Assembly: GCF_003334355.1 (NCBI RefSeq) | Contig: NZ_QOWP01000008.1 | DNA from: Escherichia coli | GTDB taxonomy: Bacteria; Pseudomonadota; Gammaproteobacteria; Enterobacterales; Enterobacteriaceae | Reading direction: 5' to 3' (one strand) | Length of the DNA stretch: 64,000 bases | Shown: one piece after another, positions 58,801 through 61,800 of the stretch | Position numbering within the stretch: position 1 is the stretch's first letter | Layout: each line of letters begins with the position of its first letter | Program-made: the position numbers

Positions 58801-61800
58801 GGAACCATTGAACTGGACCCTAACGATGATATCGATGCCTTACCCGACGGCATCTACGCCCAGGTGGCGGTTTACTCCGACCATTTCAGCCATGTTTCGG
58901 TGATGCGGAAAGTGCTGCTAAGAATGACCAGCTGGATGCATTATCTTTATTTGGATCATTGAGGGGGAGGGGGGAGATTATGGAACTTTGCTCCTTGTAA
59001 GGACTAATTATTTTTGCATATTACTTCATTAGCTGCGATGATTTTTCTTTAATATTCATTATGTTAATAAGTTCTGGATGAGTGTGCTCTCATTGGATTT
59101 TTTATCCGTCTTGTTCTGCCGCAGGATGAGACTATACATCGTCGAGATCGCAATGATGATATGAGTTGTTCCTCCTGCGACGGCTCTAATCAAAAAAGAG
59201 CAGGAGTGCTTTTCCATCTATTGCGATGATGGCTTTATTATCTGAAGGATGACAGTCACATTTAAAAAATATTTAATCTATAGATCACAATGTAGGGTCA
59301 TGGAATATATGTATACAACTATTTTCTTCTTCACTTTTAATTATCGTATTCATTATAAAACTAAGTTAAAAAAACTCCTGGAGAGTGAGGTATTAATATA
59401 TTTTTAAATAAAATTAAGTTATCATTCATCGATGCACTTTATAGAATCATCAATGGCCATAATAGTACTATTAACTCTCAATTTTATATTTTTATCATCA
59501 CTACAAATATTAACTGAATTTATATCAATGATTTTTTTATTCTTATCTTTTATTTTATTTACTGTTTCAATGCAATCAGCGGCAAGTTGGAGTGGATTTA
59601 TATTTTTCAGATATGGTCTTATGATCTTTCCCTTACTTAATAAATAGCATGTATAGGATTCGGAAAGTCCAGCATCTATTTTGTACCTCATTATATTAGA
59701 TAAGGATGTGAGAAATTCCTTGTTATCATTCGCAGCCATATATGCCAGTCCGAGTTCAGCCTCTGCGGCCTTACAGGCAAAATAGCTTAGTGAACACGCT
59801 TTTCGTCCCTCTTTAGTACTGGCTGATATTAGTGCCCATAATATTGCTTTGTCTGCCAAATCTAACTCTCTCTGAAATTGTCTTGCAGTAACTGCACTCG
59901 CAGAAATAGAGAAAAAAATACAATTGTTAATAACCTTGCCATATTTTTTAGTCCGTAACTGTTAATGTGCTATCTGGCTCTGAAAATATTAACTCATTTA
60001 ATTTTTGCATGTCATTAGATAAACCAGTTATACAACCCTCGGAACAGAATCGAGGTCCTAAAGACGGACCAAAAGCGTTTAAACAACTATGTATTGAAAA
60101 TCCATTGCGATTATAAGTTCCTGTATTAACTGACGGTACTAATCGTATGCCGTCAGGTTTTCTATTGCTTGCTCCCGGGTCATTAACATTCCAACTCCAT
60201 AGGCCTTGAGGTATTGGCCATCTATTTATAAATGTGTACAACGGGGATTATTTTTACATTGCATATTATTACCAGAAGCGACTGGAATACTAAGCACATC
60301 ATAAAAATTATCATCACATGGTATATCTGAAACACACGAAAGCATACCTAAAGTTATGCTGTATAAACAGGTGGCTAATCCCAAGGGGATCGATTCCAGA
60401 AATCGGGTTCAACGGATACTGATAAAAATTCCACCTACCTTCCAGCCCAATCGGAGCCTGAGTGTTATACCGCCCCTGCTGCGGTTAATGTTACCGATAC
60501 TAGTTATAGTACAGCCCTGATTCATCATCATACTACTGCTGCGGCAGTCTGATGAACTATTGCTTTTACGGATTCTCCTTATTCTTCCTTCTATCCATTC
60601 GCTTTAGCTTTTTGAGCTCTTGAAGTTTGCTCTTTGCATCAATATTACCGTTATTTACAGCGAATTCCATCCAATAAATAGCTCTATTCAAATTATAATA
60701 TTCTGATAATGTTGGATTTTTATCTGATAAAAAGACCCCATAATTAAACTGCGCTGTAACATTCCCCTGAGATGCTGATCTTTCCAAGAATCGCAATTGT
60801 TTGTAAATGTTATTTTTAGTAAAGCAGTAATATTGATATAGTCGAAATGATGCCTCTGAATCACCATGTTGTGATTTATACTTCAGTTTCATCAACTTTT
60901 TTTCACTTAAATCATAGGTCATTGCTGTAGACCCCATCATACTTTCGTTTTGTTTTATTTTCACATCAGCACCATGCAATTGACAAATAAAAGAGAAATA
61001 AAAAAATAGTAACAAGCATGCTTTCATACATCTACAACCTATCTTATATCACTGGGTTTTTCTGGCGTACCTTGCATATTAGAAATGGGGTGCCCAGATG
61101 GCCCATATGTTATCCAATTACCAAGGTCTTTTGTTGTTATAGCCATTAGATCCTTATTTGAATTAAGGTTCGTTGGTGCTGTTAGCACTGTATCCATTTT
61201 TAACTTACCATTAGTTCCTCGCCCCCACCACGTCCATAGCGTGTCAGGTCCTATTACATTTGTATGTAACTCTTTAGCTAATTGGCTAGCAAATGAATTT
61301 TGTCCTTTACCTGTATTACAAGAAAATAACCAAACTGTCATCCCATCTTTATAATTCCCATCAAATTTAATTAGATATGCTAGATCTTTAGCTGTCATGA
61401 TACTGCGCGTTGCGGATTCAATAGATGTGGGGGTACCATGCCCCCCGATTGTGAAAACGCCTGGGATATTAATCTCATCAGCTACAGAATGGATAAGATC
61501 ACTTTCGGGGTATAAATTTATATCAACCAAACCTTGCGGATCTACATTTATGACCGGATTCAACGGATACTGATAAAAATTCCATCCCCCCTTCAGTCCA
61601 ATCGGATCCTGAGTGATATACCGCCCCAGCAGCGGGTCATAATAGCGGTGGCGGTTGTAATACAGGCCGGACTCCTCATCATACTGCTGCCCCGGCAGGC
61701 GGATAAGCTGCTGCAGCTGATGCGGGTTCTCTTCATTCAGCAGGTTGCCCCATTCATCGTATTCTGCGCACCATTCTGTTGTCCCTTCCTTGCTGATAAG

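What the first reader, a model, noticed from the sequence alone, without database searches (positions are those of the whole stretch)
58963..59421. AT-rich junction between yibH and the Rhs module array
About 460 bp with no ORF of 60 codons or more, very AT-rich, starting with a G-rich tract (GAGGGGGAGGGGGGAG) right after the yibH stop and containing an inverted repeat (CCTCCTGC...GCAGGAG). It marks the boundary between core and acquired DNA and may carry the promoter for the distal immunity gene.
Basis: seen in the sequence. Interest (0 to 1): 0.25.

Follow-up and report, generated by a model that had tools for sequence, protein, structure and literature searches.

The report
Decayed transposase remnant ending RhsA island
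The 459-bp "AT-rich junction" after yibH is ordinary and already annotated: it is mostly the decayed stump of an ISAs1-type (H-repeat) insertion sequence, K-12 pseudogene yibU, which forms the outer end of the RhsA island, and it lies downstream of the immunity gene, not upstream.

Summary
The window is the E. coli mtlA–yibI–yibH–RhsA region. The described features are all present: no ORF of 60 codons or more, 33% GC, the G-tract at 58961-58976, and the CTCCTGC/GCAGGAG repeat at 59172/59200. The inverted repeat is at chance level.

About 290 of the 459 bp are a dead H-repeat (ISAs1-family) transposase gene on the minus strand.
- **Internal fragment:** 59027-59259 is 77% identical to K-12 yhhI (E 2e-48), with one stop and frameshifts. 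This is the K-12 pseudogene yibU.
- **Terminal fragment (probable):** after an internal deletion come the last ~38 nt of the element. Its terminal repeat is the second G-run.
- **Remainder:** 59260-59421 is a 162-bp locus-specific AT-rich 3' flank of the Imm57/yibV gene.

Genomes without RhsA join yibH to yibF through 70 bp, and homology breaks one base after the yibH stop. The core/acquired boundary is therefore real, but it sits at 58963/58964 and the whole region is acquired DNA.

The promoter idea fails. The immunity gene is convergent: its stop is at 59422 and its start at 59942. It is also frameshifted.

I found no terminator or Rfam family, and no conservation above the neighbouring genes. 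Low interest; already known.

The parts
57826..58962 (+). yibH (HlyD-family, 378 aa), the last core gene. Its TGA stop is at 58960-58962.
   Evidence: ORF list. RefSeq annotations under the match.
58963..58967 (.). Junction, first G-run (GGGGG). 58963 (G) is still shared with the empty site (TGAG|). Acquired DNA begins at 58964.
   Evidence: Empty-site sequences L004 and L005 compared with the window. megablast matches of RhsA-less genomes end at query position 64, which is 58963.
58968..59005 (-). Probable right terminus of the H-repeat (ISAs1-family) element. It comprises the last ~9 codons, the TAA stop and the degenerate terminal inverted repeat. The second G-run (58969-58974) plus AGATTA corresponds to CAGGGCAAGATTA.
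   Evidence: 25/36 identity to the end of the K-12 yhhI H-repeat; most of the mismatches are transitions in which the H-repeat has G or C and the window A or T. Shuffle p = 0.033 for the score alone. The hit is colinear, on the same strand and at the element's last bases. H-repeat ends were defined by aligning four K-12 copies and their flanks. Probable, not proven.
59006..59259 (-). Internal fragment of the H-repeat / ISAs1 transposase gene, the K-12 pseudogene yibU (b4652). It corresponds to about aa 96-176 of YhhI, with one in-frame stop, a +1 insertion and further indels. The secure core is 59027-59259.
   Evidence: blastn against yhhI: 182/235 (77%), E 2e-48. nhmmer E 1e-44. tblastn aa 96-159, E 1e-12. 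NCBIfam NF033564 transpos_ISAs1, E 3.9e-11, profile positions 68-149 of 314. K-12 annotates yibU at the equivalent of 59059-59257. Homology to ISAs1 genes annotated in other genomes stops at 59259.
59260..59421 (.). 162-bp AT-rich spacer unique to this locus. It is the 3' flank of the Imm57 gene, upstream of the truncated H-repeat. It has no detectable homology to anything else.
   Evidence: Sensitive blastn finds it once per genome, always at this locus, in 3700 genomes. No exact 24-mer match in 100,044 species-representative genomes. Its similarity to the H-repeat 5' leader is not significant (p = 0.37).
59340..59369 (-). Sigma-70 promoter-like site, TTAACT-N18-GATAAT. It faces yibU and yibH, away from the immunity gene.
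   Evidence: Consensus scan, 9 of 12 matches; the number of such sites is no greater than in shuffles. Shimada et al. 2014 (PMC3946193) list an in vitro RpoD-holoenzyme SELEX peak in the K-12 yibV-yibU spacer with hexamers TTAACT and GATAAT.
59422..59942 (-). Imm57-family immunity gene (K-12 yibV). It is convergent with yibH and frameshifted by a 1-nt deletion near 59918/59919 relative to the intact 173-aa allele.
   Evidence: PGAP annotates 'Imm57 family immunity protein, frameshifted' in REL606 and O157. Alignment with the intact allele of strain B1.

Best explanation
The region is non-functional, decaying DNA at the distal end of the RhsA accessory island, which sits between yibF and yibH.

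Reading the minus strand from 59421 down to 58963, it contains:
1. A 162-bp AT-rich 3' flank of the last orphan immunity gene (Imm57/yibV).
2. An H-repeat (ISAs1-family insertion sequence) that has lost its first ~430 bp. It keeps about 250 bp of the transposase gene (aa ~96-176, now carrying a stop and frameshifts; this is yibU). It has probably lost ~580 bp internally and probably keeps its last ~38 bp, including the terminal inverted repeat.
3. Four or five G residues before the yibH stop codon.

The G-rich tract is therefore the worn H-repeat end plus the insertion junction. The inverted repeat is a chance product of pseudogene decay.

- **Shown:** the homology, the truncation points, the empty site, the gene orientations, and the lack of extra conservation.
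- **Inferred:** the element once sat intact at the end of the Rhs array, as H-repeats do in RhsB, RhsC and RhsE of K-12. It decayed with a drift towards A+T. Today the stretch serves only as a convergent 3'-3' spacer.

The AT-rich part can bind RNA polymerase in vitro. This is most likely one of the spurious promoters common in AT-rich acquired DNA.
For: **ISAs1/H-repeat homology**
- all detect it.
- K-12 MG1655 annotates yibU (b4652) as a pseudogene at the same place, and the K-12 sequence is 99.6% identical to the window.
- The remnant is about 77% identical to K-12 yhhI over the secure core, whereas the yhhI and ydcC H-repeats are 93% identical to each other. It is therefore an old, decayed copy.

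**Terminal piece:**

**Empty site and presence/absence polymorphism:**

**Convergent geometry and the Imm57 frameshift:**

**No sign of constraint**
- Divergence between the K-12-type and B1-type alleles is 7.8% (left piece), 6.4% (H-repeat piece) and 4.3% (right piece). The Imm57 gene shows 6.7% and the toxin remnant 10%.
- Indels differ between alleles.
- IS insertions and IS1-mediated deletions hit the region in some strains (H1, H101).

**No functional signal:** no terminator hits, no fold better than shuffles, and no Rfam family.
Against: - The terminal-fragment assignment rests on a 36-nt, 69%-identity alignment (score p = 0.033). It is made convincing mainly by position and strand.
- The 162-bp piece has no identified origin.
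- An in vitro RNA-polymerase binding peak is reported in the yibV-yibU spacer (PMC3946193), so some transcription from this DNA cannot be excluded.
- I had no in vivo transcript, H-NS or Term-seq data to check.
- High identity (>99% in 3350 genomes) reflects recent shared ancestry and does not by itself exclude function.
Confidence: 0.87

Rival explanations
1. One reading: the AT-rich stretch carries the promoter for the distal immunity gene.
For: AT-rich DNA is full of promoter-like hexamers. Six sigma-70-like sites were found in 58800-60000.
Against: The immunity gene runs 59942 to 59422 on the minus strand, so the region lies 3' of it. Six sites is what shuffles give (5.3 +/- 2.2). The minus-strand sites inside the region (59369..59340, 59266..59237, 59067..59038) all lie downstream of the gene's stop and read away from it. 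The gene is a frameshifted pseudogene here.
Confidence: 0.02
2. The region is a functional bidirectional terminator or insulator that stops the convergent transcription of yibIH and of the Rhs tail.
For: The geometry is convergent. There is a weak hairpin plus a U7 run on the minus strand (about 59374-59386, followed by T7), roughly 40 nt after the Imm57 stop. The G-run can pair with CTCC after the yibH stop.
Against: The terminator scan finds none. The minus-strand hairpin is -3 kcal/mol with z = +0.17. The yibH-proximal fold has z = -1.2 and no U-tract. The T-run and G-run lengths vary among alleles. In RhsA-less genomes yibH is followed by 70 bp of entirely different sequence.
Confidence: 0.05
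3. The sigma-70 site at 59369..59340 (minus strand) is a real promoter. It would make a transcript through yibU that runs antisense into the 3' end of yibH, giving RhsA-bearing strains a strain-specific influence on yibIH.
For: An in vitro RpoD-holoenzyme SELEX peak in the K-12 yibV-yibU spacer, with the same hexamers TTAACT and GATAAT, is listed as a 'constitutive promoter' for yibU (PMC3946193). The site is unchanged in all six alleles aligned.
Against: The site matches only 9 of 12 positions with an 18-bp spacer, and the paper prints 15. Such sites are as frequent in shuffled sequence. In vitro binding to AT-rich DNA is common and often silenced in vivo (established knowledge, not tested here). 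No conserved RNA structure or ORF lies downstream. The region is lost or interrupted in some strains.
Confidence: 0.06

Closest known systems
E. coli K-12 pseudogene yibU (b4652)
   Same: Same locus, same strand and 99.6% identical sequence. The K-12 feature corresponds to window 59059-59257.
   Different: The K-12 feature covers only 199 bp. Here the homologous stretch is longer (59027-59259 secure, probably 59006-59259), and a separate terminal fragment (58968-59005) is proposed.
H-repeat (H-rpt) / ISAs1-family insertion sequences of Rhs elements, for example K-12 yhhI (RhsB), ydcC (RhsE) and ybfL/ybfD (RhsC)
   Same: Same gene family, same position at the distal end of an Rhs element, and the same right-end sequence ...TAATCTTGCCCTG. 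That H-repeats accompany Rhs C-terminal tips is stated in PMC3032704.
   Different: This copy lacks the left end and the first 95 codons, and probably codons ~177-369. It carries a stop and frameshifts. It is about 77% identical to K-12 yhhI, while the yhhI and ydcC elements are 93% alike. It cannot encode a transposase.
Orphan toxin/immunity modules downstream of rhs genes (Rhs C-terminal tips with cognate immunity genes)
   Same: The region is the tail of such an array: rhsA - yibA - Rhs fragment - yibG - Rhs/tlde1 fragment - Imm57.
   Different: The finding itself is not a module. It lies beyond the last immunity gene and encodes nothing intact.
Spurious promoters in AT-rich horizontally acquired DNA (xenogeneic silencing by H-NS; established knowledge)
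   Same: 33% GC acquired DNA with an in vitro RNA-polymerase binding peak.
   Different: The Shimada table does not flag an H-NS site for this spacer. In vivo activity is untested.

Membership tests
ISAs1-family (H-repeat) insertion sequence | Significant sequence homology to the ISAs1 transposase gene | tested here: met
   NF033564 E 3.9e-11. tblastn against YhhI E 1e-12. blastn E 2e-48. nhmmer E 1e-44.
ISAs1-family (H-repeat) insertion sequence | Intact transposase ORF (~378 aa) reaching the family's curated score | tested here: not met
   Only profile positions 68-149 of 314 match, at 42.7 bits against a cut-off of 70. There is one in-frame stop and frameshifts. It is a remnant, not a member capable of transposition.
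ISAs1-family (H-repeat) insertion sequence | Both terminal inverted repeats (CAGGG[A/C]AAGAT...) | tested here: inconclusive
   The ends were defined from K-12 copies. A right-end-like sequence is present at 58968-58980 (GGGGGGAGATTA against CAGGGCAAGATTA) within a 25/36 alignment, p = 0.033. The left end is absent, because homology starts abruptly at 59259.
K-12 pseudogene yibU | Same position between yibH and yibV, with near-identical sequence | tested here: met
   99.6% identity over all 459 bp. The feature lies at locus 6097-6295 of L002.
Boundary of the RhsA accessory element | Presence/absence polymorphism with an identifiable empty site | tested here: met
   3726 of 5426 genomes carry the region and 5331 carry yibH. 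The empty site is yibH-70 bp-yibF. The K-12 yibF side rejoins at GCCATACTGATATTTTTCC.
Promoter of the adjacent immunity gene | Located 5' of the gene on its coding strand | tested here: not met
   The gene runs 59942 to 59422 on the minus strand, so the region is 3' of it.
Rho-independent terminator | G+C-rich hairpin followed by a U-tract, folding better than chance | tested here: not met
   0 sites in the scan. Fold z-scores range from -1.2 to +1.2.
Known RNA families (Rfam 15) | Covariance-model match at or near the gathering score | tested here: not met
   The only hit is an archaeal snoRNA model at 17 bits against a gathering score of 35.6 (E 0.77). It lies inside yibH.

The most novel reading that the evidence does not exclude
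The RNA-polymerase binding site at 59369..59340 (minus strand) could be a live promoter. Its transcript would cross the dead transposase fragment and run antisense into the 3' end of yibH. In that case the RhsA island would alter expression of the neighbouring core operon yibIH only in strains that carry it.
Probability: 0.05. Interest if true: 0.3.

Novelty: already known. Interest (0 to 1): 0.07.

Why it matters
It matters very little. The result tidies an annotation in four ways:
- The 'spacer' between yibH and the RhsA tail is a dead H-repeat (ISAs1-type) element.
- The G-rich tract is probably that element's worn terminal repeat.
- The island boundary falls one base after the yibH stop codon.
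- The distal toxin/immunity module and its flank are all decaying.

This fits the long-standing picture that H-repeats mark the distal ends of Rhs elements, and it opens no new question.

Tried and rejected
- **Rfam scan at E <= 1:** nothing relevant.
- **Promoter/terminator scan:** promoter-like sites are no more frequent than in shuffles, and there are no terminators.
- **RNA folds:** the yibH 3' end, both strands of the inverted repeat and the Imm57 3' flank all fall within the shuffle range.
- **Inverted-repeat count against shuffles:** chance level.
- **Origin of the 162-bp piece 59260-59421:**
  - Sensitive blastn in 5426 E. coli genomes found it only at this locus.
  - An exact 24-mer scan of species-representative genomes found nothing.
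  - Its best alignment to the H-repeat 5' leader is not significant (p = 0.37), so I do not claim that origin.
- **The two 52-codon ORFs:**
  - 59059..59217 (-) is simply the H-repeat fragment read from an internal ATG.
  - 59249..59407 (+) is broken by a 1-nt deletion in the B1-type allele.
- **G-quadruplex reading of the G-tract:** considered but not pursued. There are only two G-runs, and their lengths and spacer vary between alleles.
- **Literature search for 'yibU' alone:** swamped by authors' names. Combined searches found one relevant paper.
- **Expensive peptide-pattern scan of genome collections for Imm57 neighbours:** not run, because it could not change the verdict.

Full report
**Where we are.** The window end is the E. 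coli mtlA (-), yibI (+), yibH (+, 57826..58962) region, followed on the minus strand by the tail of the RhsA element. The finding (58963-59421) lies between the yibH stop codon and the stop codon (59422-59424) of the next long ORF. That ORF is on the minus strand, and RefSeq annotates it as an Imm57-family immunity protein (K-12 yibV). The two flanking genes therefore converge on the region.

**Checking the observation.**
- The longest ORFs inside the region are two of 52 codons.
- GC is 33.3% against 49% for the window.
- GAGGGGGAGGGGGGAG starts at 58961, overlapping the TGA stop.
- CTCCTGC at 59172 pairs with GCAGGAG at 59200.

The inverted repeat is not remarkable.
- Two perfect 7-mer inverted repeats with short loops are observed, and dinucleotide shuffles give 1.96 on average.
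- Neither strand folds better than shuffled sequence.
- The low GC is not a property of a 'junction'. It continues through the Imm57 gene and the Rhs tail to about 61500.

**What the DNA is.** K-12 MG1655 annotates a pseudogene, yibU (b4652), at the equivalent of window 59059-59257 on the minus strand. The minus-strand translation reads like an ISAs1-family (H-repeat) transposase, and four tests confirm this:
- NCBIfam NF033564, E 3.9e-11, profile positions 68-149 of 314.
- tblastn with K-12 YhhI: aa 96-123 and 124-159 match in two frames, with one in-frame stop.
- DNA alignment: 59027-59259 is 182/235 (77%) identical to yhhI, E 2e-48.
- nhmmer: E 1e-44.

Homology begins abruptly at 59259, both against K-12 copies and against ISAs1 genes annotated in other genomes. 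It fades out near 59006-59013. The yhhI and ydcC H-repeats of K-12 are 93% identical to each other, while this fragment is about 77% identical to yhhI. It is therefore an old, decayed copy.

**The G-tract.** I located the true ends of the H-repeat by aligning the K-12 copies at yhhI, ydcC, ybfL and ybfD together with their flanks.
- The right end is ...TCGTAATCTT(G/T)CCCTG, eight bases after the stop codon.
- The left end is CAGGGAAAGATCATC.
- The terminal inverted repeat is therefore CAGGG(A/C)AAGAT.

The minus strand of 58970-59005 aligns with the last 36 nt of the element at 25/36. The TAA stop is in register, and most of the mismatches are transitions in which the H-repeat has G or C and the window A or T. 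The score alone is reached by 3.3% of shuffles. That the hit is colinear, on the same strand and at the very terminus makes chance much less likely. I call this probable rather than shown.

On this reading the second G-run plus AGATTA (58969-58980) is the worn terminal repeat (CAGGGCAAGATTA). The element has lost about 580 bp internally. Only GGGG(G) separates its end from the yibH stop codon.

**The inverted repeat explained.** It lies inside the transposase fragment.
- The corresponding yhhI sequence (CTCCGGC ... GCAGG-GG) is only partly self-complementary.
- The window and K-12 allele has an extra base (GCAGGAGG) that both shifts the frame and completes the arm.
- The B1-type allele lacks this base.

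The repeat is a by-product of decay.

**The remaining 162 bp (59260-59421).**
- It occurs once per genome, and only at this locus, in 3700 E. coli genomes.
- It has no exact 24-mer match in 100,044 species-representative genomes.
- It has no significant similarity to the H-repeat (p = 0.37).

I treat it as the 3' flank of the Imm57 module. It contains the promoter-like site TTAACT-N18-GATAAT at 59369..59340 on the minus strand. Shimada et al. 2014 list an in vitro RpoD-holoenzyme SELEX peak in the K-12 yibV-yibU spacer with these same hexamers, directed at yibU (PMC3946193). Their table prints a 15-bp spacer, whereas I count 18. This site reads away from the immunity gene.

**Core versus acquired.**
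- 5331 of 5426 complete genomes have the yibH 3' end, and 3726 have the region.
- In the listed genomes that lack the region, the match ends at 58963.
- Two such genomes (Yu5, SaT040) have yibH - 70 bp - yibF with no RhsA.
- On the far side of the K-12 island, homology to the empty site resumes at GCCATACTGATATTTTTCC, just upstream of yibF.

The boundary is therefore real, but it is a point one base after the stop codon. All 459 bp belong to the island.

**The promoter interpretation.** It fails on geometry.
- Alignment with the intact 522-bp Imm57 gene of strain B1 places the start codon at 59942 and the stop at 59422.
- The window, like K-12, REL606 and O157, has a 1-nt deletion near 59918/59919 that frameshifts the gene.
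- The toxin remnant upstream carries further deletions.

**Constraint.** There is none that I can detect.
- Between the K-12-type and B1-type alleles the three sub-segments differ by 7.8%, 6.4% and 4.3%, plus indels. The Imm57 gene differs by 6.7% and the toxin remnant by 10%.
- The G-run and T-run lengths vary between alleles.
- The region is interrupted by ISEc69 (H1) or IS1 (H101) in some strains, and removed by IS1-associated deletions in others.
- There is no terminator, no fold above chance and no Rfam family.

**Verdict.** This is an ordinary, already-annotated pseudogene remnant at the distal edge of the RhsA island. The boundary idea is right and the promoter idea is wrong. The only residual possibility of function is a weak, probably spurious, sigma-70 site facing yibH.

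Noticed in passing
window 59422-59942 (-): The distal Imm57 immunity gene is itself a pseudogene here. A 1-nt deletion near 59918/59919 sits in the T-run of the signal-peptide-like N-terminus, relative to the intact 173-aa allele of strain B1. K-12 carries an additional A insertion in an A-run, which gives the shorter annotated yibV.
   Followed up: yes
window 59943-60360 (-): The orphan tlde1-type toxin remnant upstream of Imm57 (K-12 yibW) has a 9-nt and a 1-nt deletion and is 10% diverged from the intact B1 allele. The whole last module is decaying.
   Followed up: partly
L007 (E. coli strain B1, NZ_CP157955.1) 5458-7673: In this strain the intact tlde1-Imm57 module is bracketed by H-repeats. 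An intact ISAs1 transposase gene lies at 6537-7673 on one side and the yibU remnant on the other. This hints that H-repeats were involved in bringing the module in.
   Followed up: no
window 57826-58962 versus L001 (REL606): yibH differs from REL606 by 23 of 1137 bases (2.0%). The adjacent island tail (58963-59421) differs by 1 of 459. The core gene and the island have different histories, indicating a recombination mosaic.
   Followed up: no
L009 (strain DSM 103246) 3001-3460: This allele resembles the B1-type in the left half of the region and the K-12-type in the right half, so it looks like a recombinant. The main rhs gene at this locus is annotated there as rhsB with yhhH.
   Followed up: no
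window 58900-59500; hits H1, H101, L006, L011: IS activity in and around the region: an ISEc69 insertion (ETEC4090), an IS1 insertion (ZF34), and IS1-associated deletions. One deletion removes the whole distal array (ET791). Another removes the 3' half of yibH plus most of the region (Z142-3).
   Followed up: partly
window 59390: The window has G where the other five alleles aligned have T (GAGTGAGGTATT against GAGTGAGTTATT), and no complete genome matched the region at better than 99.8%. This appears to be a private SNP of the source strain.
   Followed up: no
window 59340-59369 (-) / PMC3946193 Table 3: The published 'constitutive promoter' for yibU is printed as TTAACT-15-GATAAT. In the sequence, which is identical in K-12, the two hexamers are 18 bp apart.
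   Followed up: partly
window 59432-59647 (+): A 71-codon ORF lies antisense to the Imm57 gene in 23-28% GC DNA. It is most likely a by-product of the AT-rich composition and is not annotated in any genome examined.
   Followed up: no
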